DNA from: Candidatus Acheromyda pituitae
GTDB taxonomy: Bacteria; Chlamydiota; Chlamydiia; Chlamydiales; Rhabdochlamydiaceae
Direction: 5' to 3'
NCBI GenBank assembly: GCA_019634675.1
Contig: JAHCAX010000008.1
Location: 14,158-78,157, forward strand
DNA length: 64,000 nt
Numbering within the stretch: the stretch's first letter is position 1; the number at the start of each line of letters is the position of its first letter. The position numbers and the translations under genes were made by a program. The notes beneath the pieces are model-generated. The model was not told the DNA's origin. It saw only the letters and a program-made list of their open reading frames with translations, and did no database searches. Positions 13,036 through 15,945 of the stretch are shown piece by piece.

Positions 13036-15945
13036 ATGGCATCGGCAGTGACTAGCCTCCTCCACTCAATGCGATCGACAATCCAACCTGAATTCAGTTC
13101 AAAAGCTGACGTCCTGAAAGGTTTTGAAACACGTTTCTCCATATTTCATAATAATCAATTTATTACAGACCAGGCATTGTATCCTCGAATGCTAAAAGAA
13201 CGGGTCTCTGAATGCCATAAAGAGCACTTTAGCACCGTCTTTAAAATCGAACAGCAGCGGGAAGGCCTTGCAGAGAAATTAGATGCCGTTGAGAAAGTCC
13301 GCGATCTAGTAAAGGTTCTCAATAATAGAGGGGACGAAGGACAAATCAAGTCAGCGTTCAATCAAATTCCCTTCCGTTATCAACAACAGATTTATTGGAC
13401 GATTTGGTTGATGAAGGGATGCCCTTTTGAAGATGATTTTGGAAAAAAGGCCCTTGAAGCGGACATCTTTCTGCTGGCCTCAAATGAACCTTTGCTGTTT
13501 TTAAGAGATGGCAATTTAGCAGAGCAATTGTTATGGCGGCTAAAAGAGGAAGTAGCCATTCTTAAACAAGAGGCCCTGGTCAAAACGTTCGAAAAGATCT
13601 CAGATCTTCTCTACCGTCCTATTAGCGATTCCGCTGCAATTATTGGTTTATTGGAAACATTGCCAAAAAACGAGCAATTATGGCTTCATTATGATGTTTA
13701 TTCCTACTCAAGCGAACCTATTGAGGTGAAGGAGACAGAGGACTGGGGGAAAAAAGAGCTGTATCGCAATCTCAATGTATTAAAAGAGATCCTGATCCCT
13801 TCCCCTTATCCAAATTATTCTTCCGCTAGTTCATCTTTATCTTCTTTTTCCTCTTCATCAAACATCTTTGATCACCATTATCGCTGTCATCTTGAAACCC
13901 TTAAAAAACTGAGGACAGCCAAGGAGCTAGAGGAATTTGAGAGGATTGCAGTCCTTTCTCAGACATTTCCAAAAGAGACAATTCATAACATCCTTGGAAG
14001 CATGTCTGCTTCTGTAAGGTCTATGGTCGAACAGGTAAAGGCTTCTGAAGGTTCCGAGGTTCCCATCGTTGAAAGTTCTAGCTCTTCTTCCATTGAAACT
14101 TTGTATGAACGCAGAGGAGCTCATATTCATCAGGATAGCACGACCTTTCGGGTATTTGCTCCAAATGCAAAAAACGTGCAGCTGCAACTGTGTCATAAGG
14201 GGGTTGTGGAACATACGATTCCACTGCAACGGAACTTCCTTGGTGAATGGGAAACTACCACTAAGCTAGCACCTGCCGGCACAACTTACCGTTATCTTGT
14301 TGAAGATGCCTCCGGAATGCTCCTCTCTCGTACGGATCCTTTCAGCTTTTCTACAGCTAAATACTTTACATTCGAAGGCACAGAACGGACAGAATCAAGA
14401 GTTGTGGATGTCGATCAGCATGAATGGAAAGACGAAGAGTGGATCAGGCAGCGTACGATGTCCGACCCGCTCCAAAAGCCTCTTTCTGTGTATGAAGCGC
14501 ATGTAGAACTATGGAGGCAGCGGGATGGAAAACCTCTTTCTTATCGAGAACTTGCCCAACATTTTATCGAGTATTGCAAAGAGATGAACCTGACACATTT
14601 GCTCCTTTATGGACTTATGGACAGTACAGGGGGATGGGGATTCCATGTTCAAAACTATTTTGCTCCCAATCCCCACTTGGGCTCGACAGAAGATTTTCAA
14701 GCTTTCGTCGACGAGCTGCATCAGCATGGAATTGGTGTCCTTCTGATGTGGGTTCCATCCCATTATAAAGAAGAACCCAAAGAGTCCTCATTGGACCATT
14801 GGGATGGAACAAACCTTTATTCCGATGGCAATAGCGAATGGGACAGCCAGCTCTTTGACTTCAGCAAGCCGGAAGTGTGCGCGCTGCTCGAGTCCAGCCT
14901 CTTGTTCTGGCTGGAAAAGCTGCATTGCGATGGGATCAGCATGGATGCTGTCAGCCATGTGGTAAGCCGGAACGGCGCCCCGTATAAACCCGGGATTAAG
15001 TTTTTGCAGAATTTGATGCAAACGATCAAGGAGAGGGTTCCTGGGGCCATCATCATCGGAGAAGAAGCGACAGCTTACGAAAAGTCGACAGATCCTGTCG
15101 AAACCGGAGGATATGGATTGGATTTGGTATGGGGAGCAGACGTCGGAACGAAGATGCGGAATTTTTTAAAGGTCCCATTTAAAGATCGCCCGACTAAACA
15201 CCAGACCGAGTTCATGCGATTTTTGAGCCATGTCCAAGGAAGACCAAAAATGATCATTTCCCATTCTCATGATGAAAGCGCTAATAGGAACTGGACGGAG
15301 GGCTATCCAATAGAACAAGATCGGACCCTTTACCGTGTCCAGCACAGTCCTCAGCAAAGTGAAAAATTTGCCGACATGCGCAACTTCTTCAGCTGGCAGA
15401 TCCTGGCGCCTAACCGCGGCTGCATGATCCACATGGGCGACGAGTTCGGACAGCGCCGATCATGGGATGCAGGGGTTTGGACTGAGGACGTATCGATTGA
15501 GTGGCATCTTTTGGACCCATCGCGCAATGCCGATTCTGATTGGCATAAAGGGCTTCAACTCTGCGTCAGCGATCTTCTTAGGCTCTATCAAGCACGCCCA
15601 GCATTCTGGAAATCAGGGGAAGCTGGTTTTCGGCAATGCTGCGATCATCCCGAAAACAATGTCATCGCCTACGAGAGGAGCGCACCCGGAGAGAAAAGGG
15701 CCTACGTCGTCCATAATTTTTCTAATAAGGAATGGGAAAGCTACCGGATCTATTTTGGCGATGAGTCTAATATCTCAGAAATTGGTAGCTTGCACGAGGT
15801 GTTCAATTCCAACTTAAGCAAATATGGGGGATCGGACAAGCATCTTAACTCATCCGTTGTGATTACAAACGATGAAAAGTCTGGTAAGCCCCTCTATATG
15901 ACGATCGCAGTGCCTCCGCTGTCGACGATGGTCTTCGAGGAATAA
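13036..15945 (+). CDS. GH13 1,4-alpha-glucan branching enzyme-like protein (CBM48 + catalytic domain) with about 350-aa non-GH13 N-terminal extension
   Basis: CBM48-like STTFRVFAPNAKNVQLQL...GEWE...YRYLV...DPFSF. GH13 regions WVPSHY, ISMDAVSHV, IIGEEAT, SHSHDES. Start set at ATG 13036 (AGGGGA Shine-Dalgarno sequence 6 nt upstream), not the listed 12982, which overlaps the promoter-like AT tract. Confidence 0.8.
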   Translation: MASAVTSLLHSMRSTIQPEFSSKADVLKGFETRFSIFHNNQFITDQALYPRMLKERVSECHKEHFSTVFKIEQQREGLAEKLDAVEKVRDLVKVLNNRGDEGQIKSAFNQIPFRYQQQIYWTIWLMKGCPFEDDFGKKALEADIFLLASNEPLLFLRDGNLAEQLLWRLKEEVAILKQEALVKTFEKISDLLYRPISDSAAIIGLLETLPKNEQLWLHYDVYSYSSEPIEVKETEDWGKKELYRNLNVLKEILIPSPYPNYSSASSSLSSFSSSSNIFDHHYRCHLETLKKLRTAKELEEFERIAVLSQTFPKETIHNILGSMSASVRSMVEQVKASEGSEVPIVESSSSSSIETLYERRGAHIHQDSTTFRVFAPNAKNVQLQLCHKGVVEHTIPLQRNFLGEWETTTKLAPAGTTYRYLVEDASGMLLSRTDPFSFSTAKYFTFEGTERTESRVVDVDQHEWKDEEWIRQRTMSDPLQKPLSVYEAHVELWRQRDGKPLSYRELAQHFIEYCKEMNLTHLLLYGLMDSTGGWGFHVQNYFAPNPHLGSTEDFQAFVDELHQHGIGVLLMWVPSHYKEEPKESSLDHWDGTNLYSDGNSEWDSQLFDFSKPEVCALLESSLLFWLEKLHCDGISMDAVSHVVSRNGAPYKPGIKFLQNLMQTIKERVPGAIIIGEEATAYEKSTDPVETGGYGLDLVWGADVGTKMRNFLKVPFKDRPTKHQTEFMRFLSHVQGRPKMIISHSHDESANRNWTEGYPIEQDRTLYRVQHSPQQSEKFADMRNFFSWQILAPNRGCMIHMGDEFGQRRSWDAGVWTEDVSIEWHLLDPSRNADSDWHKGLQLCVSDLLRLYQARPAFWKSGEAGFRQCCDHPENNVIAYERSAPGEKRAYVVHNFSNKEWESYRIYFGDESNISEIGSLHEVFNSNLSKYGGSDKHLNSSVVITNDEKSGKPLYMTIAVPPLSTMVFEE

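What the first reader, a model, noticed from the sequence alone, without database searches (positions are those of the whole stretch)
13036..15945. Glycogen-branching-enzyme-like protein with an effector-type N-terminal extension and substitutions at normally invariant GH13 positions
The C-terminal two-thirds (about 620 aa) has the CBM48 and the four GH13 conserved regions. Compared with the E. coli GlgB signatures as I remember them:
- DWVPGHF reads MWVPSHY here, so the region I Asp is Met.
- LRVDAVASM reads ISMDAVSHV here, so the Arg two residues before the nucleophile Asp is Ser.
- The nucleophile Asp, the acid/base Glu (GEEAT) and the SHDE motif are kept.

The Arg is one of the few residues considered invariant in active GH13 enzymes. 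The first 350 aa or so are unrelated to GlgB. They contain degenerate copies of the FWxxW/RPxE module found in the neighbouring effector-like genes, plus a Ser-rich linker (SSASSSLSSFSSSS).

Established knowledge: Chlamydia trachomatis secretes glycogen-metabolism enzymes into the inclusion lumen by type III secretion.

Inference: this may be a secreted GH13 protein that is functionally altered or only binds glucan. It sits between the trp and aro clusters, is AT-richer, and has its own T-tract/TATAAT promoter string.
Basis: partly seen in the sequence, partly recalled or inferred. Interest (0 to 1): 0.7.

Follow-up and report, generated by a model that had tools for sequence, protein, structure and literature searches.

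The report
Remodelled chlamydial branching-enzyme paralog
This gene of an environmental chlamydia encodes an extra copy of the glycogen branching enzyme that carries a new helical front domain also found in effector-like proteins. It has lost a conserved residue network beside its catalytic residues, so it probably binds glycogen rather than branching it.

Summary
Residues 355-968 form a complete branching-enzyme (GlgB) fold. They also show Y300->Phe536 and E285->Leu523. D405, E458, H340, H525 and D526 are kept.

Only the closest subclade (five full-length sequences, bootstrap 100) has these changes. It is nested among relatives with intact residues. The same positions were lost independently in P0020 (all four) and P0136 (three scored).

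The gene is under purifying selection (dN/dS 0.125 in the GH13 part). 71 of 77 conserved GlgB columns are unchanged.

The N-terminal 340 aa are not a private extension. They form a confidently modelled all-alpha domain with no Pfam or PDB match, present in at least 60 GlgB-like cluster representatives. The domain is built on two copies of a ~55-aa module that also occurs in LRR and orphan proteins of this window.

A complete relative genome carries a canonical GlgB as well as two such paralogs.

Best reading: a GlgB-derived, probably catalytically crippled, glucan-binding protein of a chlamydial lineage. It may be secreted, but secretion and loss of activity are inferred, not shown.

The parts
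12994..13001 (+). TGTATAAT string (extended -10-like) in an AT-rich tract, 35 nt upstream of the ATG. It is a candidate promoter element only.
   Evidence: Read directly from the sequence. The consensus scan did not call it because no -35 lies at proper spacing. An 11-nt T-rich tandem repeat covers 12966-12999.
13024..13029 (+). Shine-Dalgarno-like AGGGGA, 6 nt before the ATG at 13036.
   Evidence: It supports 13036 as the start rather than the in-frame TTG at 12982, which lies inside the promoter-like tract.
13036..15945 (+). Coding sequence of the 969-aa GlgB-derived protein.
   Evidence: ORF list. Full-length homologs P0001-P0004 and P0006. dN/dS against the 75% ortholog is 0.154 overall.
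13036..14049 (+). N-terminal all-alpha domain (residues 1-338). It is shared by the family and has no Pfam, NCBIfam or PDB counterpart.
   Evidence: AF2: pLDDT 86, pTM 0.83, 17 helices. Foldseek best E is 0.39 against PDB and 0.13 against BFVD. The PDB profile search found nothing. Pfam and NCBIfam found nothing. jackhmmer finds the domain in more than 60 of the relatives examined.
13330..13488 (+). Module A (residues 99-151): GDEGQIKSAFNQIPFRYQQQIYWTIWLMKGCPFEDDFGKKALEADIFLLASNE.
   Evidence: Module HMM iE 4e-20. It is homologous to module B (hhalign probability 96%, E 3e-9). BLASTP and HMM matches to window ORFs 2021-4315, 45356-46771 and 46935-47954.
13624..13791 (+). Module B (residues 197-252): ...LLETLPKNEQLWLHYDVYSYS...EDWGKKELYRNLNVLKEI. 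It is the second, more divergent copy.
   Evidence: Module HMM iE 5e-15. hhalign A against B.
13804..13851 (+). Ser-rich low-complexity loop (residues 257-272). Most of it is an insertion specific to this lineage.
   Evidence: The alignment shows a 12-14-aa insertion relative to P0002 and P0003. pLDDT is below 50. A weak 9-nt tandem repeat covers 13830-13855.
14050..14094 (+). Disordered Ser-rich linker (residues 339-353) between the N-domain and CBM48.
   Evidence: pLDDT is below 50 in both models.
14116..14346 (+). CBM48 carbohydrate-binding module (residues 361-437). Its hallmark residues are kept.
   Evidence: Pfam PF02922, E 5.8e-11. Conserved columns F371, A375, P376, A378, W405, Y418, D434 and P435 are unchanged.
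14473..15639 (+). GH13 (beta/alpha)8 catalytic-type domain (about residues 480-868) with a remodelled centre.
   Evidence: PDB GlgB alignments. Foldseek TM (target-normalised) 0.85-0.90 and rmsd 2.8-3.5 A to branching enzymes.
14602..14604 (+). Leu523, in place of the Glu of THxELxP (E. coli E285).
   Evidence: The Glu is found in 95% of 141 other GlgB-likes. The subclade has L/L/L/Q/L. P0020 independently has Q.
14641..14643 (+). Phe536, in place of Tyr (E. coli Y300; WGYQ -> WGFH).
14746..14748 (+). Met571, in place of the region I Asp (E. coli D335).
14938..14940 (+). Ser635, in place of the region II Arg at i-2 from the nucleophile (E. coli R403).
   Evidence: This Arg is described as the fourth most invariant GH13 residue (PMC8467227).
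14944..14946 (+). Asp637, the retained nucleophile position (E. coli D405).
15061..15063 (+). Glu676, the retained acid/base position (E. coli E458).
15268..15273 (+). His745-Asp746, retained region IV residues (E. coli H525, D526).
15640..15939 (+). Alpha-amylase C-terminal all-beta domain (residues 869-968).
   Evidence: Pfam PF02806, E 6.5e-14.
2021..4315 (-). LRR protein with two copies of the same ~55-aa module at its N-terminus. It is not part of the gene but shares its module.
   Evidence: N-domain HMM E 5e-13. Module HMM iE 5e-18 and 2e-16. LRR matches in Pfam, and XopAC/XopL-type LRR matches in NCBIfam.
45356..46771 (-). Orphan protein with two copies of the module.
   Evidence: No Pfam family.
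46935..47954 (-). Orphan protein with two copies of the module.

Best explanation
The gene encodes an accessory, GlgB-derived protein of an environmental chlamydia.

Shown:
- It has a complete branching-enzyme body (CBM48, GH13 barrel, C-domain) behind a family-specific ~340-aa helical domain.
- That domain is built on two copies of a ~55-aa module, which also occurs in LRR and orphan proteins of the same genome.
- Within this family the gene belongs to a small subclade that has replaced four conserved residues of the active-site region: E. coli E285, Y300, D335 and R403. That these four form one interacting cluster is inferred, not measured.
- The subclade keeps the nucleophile, the acid/base, the transition-state Asp, both His residues, the CBM48 hallmarks and 71 of 77 conserved GlgB columns.
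- The gene is under purifying selection.

Inferred:
- Without the Arg that positions the nucleophile, transglycosylation is lost or reduced by orders of magnitude.
- The cleft and CBM48 can still hold alpha-1,4-glucan chains. The protein would then act as a glucan-binding pseudoenzyme, not as the cell's branching enzyme. A canonical GlgB would supply branching.
- The helical N-domain gives localisation or partner binding. By analogy with secreted chlamydial glycogen enzymes, and because the module is shared with LRR effector-like proteins, the protein may be exported to the inclusion lumen or host cytosol.
For: Fold and motifs.

Residue mapping to E. coli GlgB.

Substitutions confined to one clade: of 155 GlgB-like sequences scored (the best relatives from two searches plus the window protein), only WIN, P0002, P0003, P0004 and P0006 (plus the fragment P0010) carry them. 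The clade has bootstrap 100 and is nested (97/94) among intact P0007, P0008, P0009 and P0011.

Specific rather than general change: only 6 of 77 columns that are at least 85% conserved are changed in all five members. Two of those six are conservative (F->Y, A->G).

Convergence: P0020 (sister to intact P0012/P0018, bootstrap 100) has Q/F/T/V at the same four positions with D-E-D kept. P0136 shows the same loss at the three positions scored (Tyr, Asp, Arg).

Purifying selection: dN/dS is 0.125 for the GH13 part and 0.22 for the N-domain at dS of about 1. Neighbouring trp/aro genes give 0.03-0.10.

Importance of the Arg and its contact with the Tyr: PMC8467227 and PMC4395411.

A canonical GlgB coexists with family members: P0394, P0009 and P0020 lie on one 2,314,346-bp contig. 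All chlamydial families keep glgB (PMC7935935).

N-domain real and uncurated.

Module shared with LRR and orphan proteins.

Chlamydial origin.

Precedent for secretion of chlamydial glycogen enzymes: PMC4829429 and PMC7935935.

No Sec signal or membrane segment.
Against: - No activity or binding data exist. GH13 members with aberrant catalytic residues are reported in the literature (Sarian et al. 2017, seen only as a title in the reference list of PMC8467227). That they can keep some activity is my recollection.
- Strict retention of D637, E676, H745 and D746 across a subclade as deep as 51% identity could equally mean that chemistry still happens there.
- Secretion is unsupported by any direct test. 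The first 16 residues are modelled as a helix belonging to the domain, and Arg13 is nearly invariant in the family. That is not what one expects of a disordered type III signal.
- A canonical glgB was not found for this genome itself. The window does not contain one, and the public-collection scans were saturated by generic GlgB.
- That the four replaced residues contact each other is inferred from motif positions and a published Tyr-Arg contact. It was not measured on a structure here.
Confidence: 0.55

Rival explanations
1. The protein is still an enzyme. The remodelled centre, with the nucleophile, acid/base and transition-state Asp kept and the Arg/Asp/Tyr/Glu positions removed, supports a different reaction or substrate. 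Examples would be slow hydrolysis, a different acceptor, or a modified or host glucan.
For: - The catalytic triad and both His residues are invariant across the five full-length subclade members despite saturated synonymous divergence.
- Only 6 of 77 conserved columns changed.
- The same set of positions was lost independently in P0020 and, at three positions, in P0136. This looks like a defined alternative state rather than decay.
- GH13 amylases with an aberrant triad are reported (title seen in the reference list of PMC8467227). That they keep activity is my recollection.
Against: - The Arg at i-2 is the most conserved GH13 residue after the triad (PMC8467227).
- Even the conservative Arg-to-Lys change alters cleavage position in maize SBEIIa (PMC4395411).
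- From memory of Libessart and Preiss 1998 (title seen), replacing this Arg in maize BEII with Ala, Ser, Gln or Glu abolishes activity.
- No compensating basic residue specific to the subclade was found.
Confidence: 0.27
2. It is the organism's ordinary housekeeping branching enzyme, and the unusual residues are tolerated.
For: No canonical glgB is seen in the 64-kb window. The protein has the whole GlgB fold.
Against: - It scores below every NCBIfam GlgB equivalog cut-off (372 bits against 577).
- It lacks the GlgB_N domain that canonical chlamydial GlgBs carry.
- Canonical GlgB is present together with family members in a complete related genome, and in a chlamydial MAG labelled Verrucomicrobia.
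- The replaced residues are invariant or near-invariant (95-100%) in the 141 other GlgB-likes.
Confidence: 0.05
3. It is a non-secreted cytoplasmic protein that binds the bacterium's own glycogen, for example a scaffold or regulator of granule metabolism. The N-domain would mediate bacterial protein-protein contacts rather than host targeting.
For: - The N-terminus is structured, with a conserved Arg13.
- Most family members with this N-domain are catalytically intact (47 of 60). This fits a role in glycogen metabolism proper.
- The gene has kept its position between housekeeping trp and aro operons in two species.
Against: - The module is shared with LRR proteins whose repeats match plant-pathogen type III effectors, and with orphan proteins typical of effector repertoires.
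- The N-domain half has the low GC of those genes.
- Family members reach 1500-2600 aa with repeated modules, which is typical of secreted giant proteins.
- Chlamydial glycogen enzymes are known type III substrates.
Confidence: 0.2
4. It is a decaying pseudogene or an annotation artefact.
For: Catalytic-region residues are lost.
Against: - The 969-codon ORF is intact in five lineages.
- dN/dS is 0.125-0.22.
- Against a near-identical strain there are 4 synonymous and 2 non-synonymous differences.
- The AF2 model of the whole protein is confident (pLDDT 82).
Confidence: 0.02

Closest known systems
Bacterial GH13 glycogen branching enzyme GlgB (E. coli GlgB, PDB 1M7X/4LPC; Rhodothermus BE, 6JOY/8ZQA)
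   Same: Same CBM48 + (beta/alpha)8 + C-domain body. 26-30% identity, TM 0.85-0.90. The four conserved regions are recognisable, and the nucleophile, acid/base, transition-state Asp and both His residues are present.
   Different: - E285, Y300, D335 and R403 are replaced.
- It falls below the NCBIfam equivalog cut-offs.
- The N1/GlgB_N domain is replaced by an unrelated 340-aa helical domain.
- A ~13-residue insertion follows region IV.
Canonical chlamydial GlgB (for example Protochlamydia naegleriophila GlgB P0358; C. trachomatis GlgB, a type III substrate)
   Same: In the NJ tree the N-domain family joins the canonical chlamydial GlgBs (bootstrap 80). This suggests origin by duplication within Chlamydiae. 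The precedent for secretion of glycogen enzymes comes from this group (PMC4829429).
   Different: Canonical forms are about 720 aa with GlgB_N (PF22019) and an intact centre. They coexist with the paralogs in one genome.
Intact members of the same uncurated family (P0008, P0009, P0011, P0012, P0013)
   Same: Same N-domain, same architecture, same HSHD[DE] and DAVSH signatures, 33-42% identity.
   Different: They keep Y, D, R and E. The window's protein belongs to the derived subclade that lost them.
Waddlia/Estrella GlgA-GlgB fusion
   Same: A chlamydial branching-enzyme domain that is non-functional behind a large N-terminal addition, while another GlgB supplies branching (PMC7935935).
   Different: There the N-terminal part is a glycogen synthase, and inactivity is attributed to the extension. 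Here the extension is a novel helical domain and conserved residues beside the catalytic triad are replaced.
Plant class III branching enzyme MKIP1 (AtBE1)
   Same: A BE-derived protein that lost branching activity and was recruited for a non-catalytic role, with a lineage-specific inserted region (PMC13172542).
   Different: MKIP1 lost two Asp of the triad and diverged widely. Here the triad is intact, divergence is focused on four positions, and the CBM48 hallmarks are kept. A glucan-related role therefore remains likely.

Membership tests
GH13 branching enzyme (GlgB, EC 2.4.1.18) | CBM48 + (beta/alpha)8 barrel + C-terminal beta domain architecture | tested here: met
   Pfam. Full-length alignment to PDB GlgBs. 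Foldseek TM 0.85-0.90.
GH13 branching enzyme (GlgB, EC 2.4.1.18) | Catalytic triad: nucleophile Asp (region II), acid/base Glu (region III), transition-state Asp (region IV) | tested here: met
   D637, E676 and D746 align with E. coli D405, E458 and D526.
GH13 branching enzyme (GlgB, EC 2.4.1.18) | Invariant Arg two residues before the nucleophile | tested here: not met
   Ser635. The Arg is 100% conserved in the 141 other GlgB-likes.
GH13 branching enzyme (GlgB, EC 2.4.1.18) | Region I Asp and the Tyr of WGYQ (E. coli D335, Y300) | tested here: not met
   Met571 and Phe536.
GH13 branching enzyme (GlgB, EC 2.4.1.18) | Score above the curated GlgB equivalog cut-offs | tested here: not met
   The best is NF008967 at 372 bits against a cut-off of 577. 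All six GlgB models are below cut-off.
GH13 branching enzyme (GlgB, EC 2.4.1.18) | Alpha-1,4 to alpha-1,6 transglycosylation activity | not testable with these tools
   Needs a recombinant enzyme assay.
N-domain GlgB-like family of environmental Chlamydiae (uncurated; defined here) | About 300-340-aa helical N-domain with two paired modules and an LEEFER helix, followed by CBM48-GH13 | tested here: met
   jackhmmer and HMM E-values of 1e-110 or lower, and alignment. hhalign of the two modules. AF2.
N-domain GlgB-like family of environmental Chlamydiae (uncurated; defined here) | Phylogenetic placement inside the family clade | tested here: met
   NJ tree: the 20-sequence HSHD clade has bootstrap 100 and the N-domain clade bootstrap 90.
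Chlamydial type III secreted effector | N-terminal signal that drives type III-dependent export | not testable with these tools
   No predictor or assay is available. The N-terminus is Ser/Thr-rich without a Sec signal, but it is modelled as a structured helix.
Chlamydial type III secreted effector | Lineage-specific or eukaryote-interaction modules shared with other effector candidates | tested here: met
   The module is shared with LRR and orphan proteins of the window and of relatives. This is suggestive only.
Organism belongs to Chlamydiota | Housekeeping proteins closest to chlamydial ones | tested here: met
   Named best hits of chorismate synthase are Chlamydiota, Chlamydiales and Simkaniaceae MAGs, plus MAGs labelled Verrucomicrobia. 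The window also has TLC-like, DUF2608, Ank, LRR and kinase genes.

The most novel reading that the evidence does not exclude
Environmental chlamydiae have turned a duplicated glgB into a large family of modular effectors. Their previously undescribed helical N-domain targets them to host or inclusion structures. Inside this family, and elsewhere among GlgB-likes, the centre has been converted repeatedly and convergently to a defined 'Arg-network-less but triad-intact' state. That state has a new biochemical function, for example a glucan clamp that seizes host glycogen chains or a new transferase chemistry, rather than being dead.
Probability: 0.2. Interest if true: 0.8.

Novelty: new variant of a known kind. 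Interest (0 to 1): 0.6.

Why it matters
Chlamydiae are unusual among obligate intracellular bacteria in keeping glycogen metabolism and in exporting glycogen enzymes to manipulate host carbon.

This gene points to an undescribed layer of that biology. It belongs to a family of at least 60 sequence clusters of GlgB-derived proteins with a helical domain of no known fold. Some of them have specifically lost the Arg-centred residue set next to an otherwise preserved catalytic centre.

If these proteins bind host or inclusion glycogen without branching it, they would be a new class of metabolic effector or pseudoenzyme. They would also be a natural experiment on what the fourth invariant GH13 residue does.

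The paired ~55-aa module is a handle for finding further effector candidates in environmental chlamydiae.

Tried and rejected
Collection scans that failed:
It returned only hits of 32% identity or less from unrelated phyla.
- The metagenome-contig scan with the five-member subclade alignment was saturated in the same way. Its best hits were 41% and 39% intact relatives, with no new subclade member.

Look-ups that did not resolve the question:
- An exact look-up of the window protein found nothing. Only a near-identical variant differing at two residues (P0001) is on record.
- A canonical glgB could not be tied to the closest MAG, GCA_018239665.1. The candidate P0432 comes from a different chlamydial MAG labelled Verrucomicrobia, GCA_018239805.1.

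Negative searches:
- Pfam and NCBIfam at lenient thresholds, a PDB profile search, and Foldseek against PDB and BFVD gave no match for the N-domain or module.
- The module HMM did not confirm the weak N-domain HMM hit to the 1089-aa GlgA-like protein.

Ideas rejected:
- 'Arg present but offset', because three independent alignments agree.
- A compensating basic residue specific to the subclade, because none was found.
- A pseudogene.
- A Sec signal or membrane anchor.
- A functional link to the flanking trp and aro operons. Only position is conserved, a 27-bp palindrome separates the gene from the upstream operon, and more distant subclade members lie in other contexts.

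
Full report
**What is there.** The finding sits on one ORF, 12982-15945(+). The ATG at 13036 is preceded by AGGGGA at 13024-13029 and gives 969 aa.
- Pfam sees CBM48 (residues 361-437), a weak Alpha-amylase match (511-580) and Alpha-amylase_C (869-968). It sees nothing in the first 350 residues.
- NCBIfam GlgB equivalogs match residues 352-968 end to end, but at 372 bits or fewer against cut-offs of 464 or more.
- The best solved relatives are bacterial branching enzymes (6joy, E 3e-73).
- An AF2 model of the whole protein has pLDDT 82. It superposes on them over about 630 columns with target-normalised TM 0.85-0.90.

**The substitutions.** The HMMER alignments to PDB GlgBs show four conserved regions:
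- DWVPSHF -> MWVPSHY
- GLRVDAV -> GISMDAV
- AEEST -> GEEAT
- LSHDE -> HSHDE

I took E. coli glgB from MG1655 and aligned it with the family.

| E. coli residue | This protein | Status |
|---|---|---|
| E285 | L523 | replaced |
| Y300 | F536 | replaced |
| D335 | M571 | replaced |
| H340 | H576 | kept |
| R403 | S635 | replaced |
| D405 | D637 | kept |
| E458 | E676 | kept |
| H525 | H745 | kept |
| D526 | D746 | kept |

Two further conserved positions are also replaced. The Arg at i-2 from the nucleophile is described as the fourth most invariant residue of GH13 after the triad (PMC8467227). In branching enzymes it lies next to the nucleophile and contacts the Tyr (PMC4395411).

**How special this is.** An exhaustive HMMER search of 1.84 billion representatives gave 4801 relatives. 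I tabulated the motifs in 155 GlgB-like sequences, namely the best relatives from two searches plus the window protein.
- Only the closest subclade has the Tyr/Asp/Arg replacements: the window protein, P0002 and P0003 (75%), P0004 and P0006 (about 52%), and the fragment P0010.
- The next relatives (P0007-P0019, 35-49% identity) are intact.
- In an NJ tree with 100 bootstraps the subclade has support 100. It is nested (97 and 94) among intact P0007, P0008, P0009 and P0011. The loss therefore happened once on its stem.
- Of 77 columns that are at least 85% conserved in 141 other GlgB-likes, only six are changed in all five full-length members: E523, Y536, D571, R635, and the conservative F577Y and A675G. 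The CBM48 hallmark residues are all kept.
- P0020 groups with intact P0012 and P0018 (bootstrap 100). It has Q/F/T/V at the same four positions with D-E-D kept.
- P0136, outside the N-domain family, shows the same loss at the three positions scored (Tyr, Asp, Arg).
- P0021 has decayed more broadly.

The state 'Arg network gone, triad kept' has therefore arisen at least three times.

**Is it a live gene?** Against the ortholog in MAG GCA_018239665.1 (L001), dN/dS is 0.125 for the GH13 part and 0.22 for the N-domain at dS of about 1. Adjacent aroG, aroC, aroA and trpA give 0.03-0.10. A near-identical strain differs by 4 synonymous and 2 non-synonymous changes. The gene is under purifying selection, a few-fold weaker than in its housekeeping neighbours.

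**The N-terminus.** It is not a private extension.
- jackhmmer over the relatives finds the region in more than 60 of them, often at E below 1e-50, and repeated in proteins of 1500-2300 aa.
- Of the 60 N-domain-bearing sequences in the set, 47 have an intact active site, 9 are changed and 4 are partial.
- The alignment shows two LP...W..W...P...[YW]G...L modules and a conserved LEEFER helix.
- hhalign shows the two modules are homologous (probability 96%, E 3e-9).
- AF2 on a 16-sequence alignment gives a confident all-alpha model (pLDDT 86, pTM 0.83).
- Foldseek finds nothing below E 0.39 in the PDB or 0.13 in BFVD.
- A PDB profile search, Pfam and NCBIfam find nothing.
- A survey of GBE N-termini lists only types 1 and 2, and only type 1 in Chlamydiae (PMC6339891).

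The N-domain HMM hits window ORFs 2021-4315(-) (an LRR protein, E 5e-13), 45356-46771(-) (5e-10) and 46935-47954(-) (1.5e-7). It also hits genes next to GH13-like paralogs in other contigs. The module always comes in pairs or triples.

**Organism and context.**
- Named best hits of the window's chorismate synthase are Chlamydiota, Chlamydiales and Simkaniaceae MAGs, plus MAGs labelled Verrucomicrobia.
- One family member is annotated Simkania sp..
- The window also holds Ank, LRR, Ser/Thr-kinase, DUF2608 and TLC-like genes.
- The gene lies between the trp operon (ending in an aroG-like gene at 12453) and a reverse-strand aro cluster. This position is conserved in L001 but not for P0004.
- A 27-bp perfect palindrome (12516-12572) separates it from the upstream operon.
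- GC is 41.6% in the N-domain half, 48.4% in the GH13 half and 50-51% in the flanks.

**Is there another glgB?** A canonical chlamydial GlgB query (P0140) recovered P0394. P0394 is 719 aa with GlgB_N + CBM48 + GH13 + C-domain. It lies on the same 2,314,346-bp contig as the intact paralog P0009 and the degenerate paralog P0020. All chlamydial families are reported to keep glgB (PMC7935935). For the window's own genome this could not be checked.

**Interpretation.** Identity is secure: a derived member of an uncurated, chlamydia-associated family of GlgB paralogs with a novel helical N-domain.

The mechanism is inferred. Loss of the Arg and of its presumed partners should abolish or greatly reduce transglycosylation. 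Purifying selection, the kept triad, His residues and CBM48, and the convergent recurrence all argue for a retained glucan-related function. Non-catalytic glucan binding is the most economical version (confidence about 0.55). An altered enzymatic activity is the main rival (about 0.27).

Export is plausible for three reasons, but it is untested:
- Chlamydial glycogen enzymes are type III substrates (PMC4829429; PMC7935935).
- The module is shared with LRR effector-like proteins.
- There is no Sec signal.

The structured, conserved N-terminal helix is mild evidence against a classical disordered signal.

A plant precedent shows that branching enzymes can be recruited to non-catalytic roles (MKIP1; PMC13172542). 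There the triad itself was lost.

**Verdict.** This is a new variant of a known kind, of moderate to high interest, mainly because of the uncurated N-domain family and the convergent, focused remodelling of the GH13 centre.

Noticed in passing
window 12516-12572 and 12760-12815: A 27-bp perfect palindrome with a 3-nt loop lies 63 nt after the aroG-like stop codon. It is unique in the window. A second, imperfect 19-bp inverted repeat lies 190 nt further on. The first is probably the terminator of the trp-aroG operon, but it is unusually long and perfect.
   Followed up: partly
window 16124-18133 (-): A 669-aa orphan gene (GC 40.6%, GC3 33.9%, no Pfam or NCBIfam match) lies between the GH13-like gene and aroC. 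It is present in the near-identical strain (L086) but absent from the 75%-identity relative (L001), so it is a recent gain or loss.
   Followed up: partly
window 2021-4315 (-), 45356-46771 (-), 46935-47954 (-); L004 8838-10784; L091 2730-4637: An uncurated ~55-aa helical module (consensus about AFxxLPxxLQxxLYWAIWxxxGxPxxDxWGxKxLxxNPxxL) occurs in pairs or triples in LRR and orphan proteins. In two other contigs a module-bearing gene lies directly beside a GH13-like paralog.
   Followed up: partly
L090 508-3777 (-): In the 2.31-Mb chlamydial genome, a 1089-aa protein with a glycogen-synthase (Glyco_transf_5) domain lies next to canonical glgB. That is about twice the usual GlgA length. The N-domain HMM hits it only weakly (E 1.4e-5) and the module HMM does not.
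   Followed up: partly
P0136 (627 aa, metagenomic; no locus fetched): A GlgB-like protein without the N-domain shows the same Tyr/Asp/Arg loss (GFKV, VWMPNHF, GFYMDC) with D-E-D kept. This is a third independent occurrence of this active-site state.
   Followed up: no
window 35341-37269, 40991-43330, 44303-45340, 52917-54563, 60344-61627, 62893-63984: A cluster of eukaryote-like or host-interaction genes: ankyrin, two LRR proteins, a Ser/Thr kinase, a protein matching only the C-terminal end of the TLC ATP/ADP transporter profile, and a phytase. Several lie in low-GC patches (38-41%).
   Followed up: no
residues 747-775 of the protein (window about 15274-15360): Directly after the region IV HD motif there is a ~13-residue insertion relative to canonical GlgB (…NRNWTEGYPIEQDRTLYRVQH…). 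It is shared by the subclade and is modelled with low confidence (pLDDT below 50 at 746-755).
   Followed up: no
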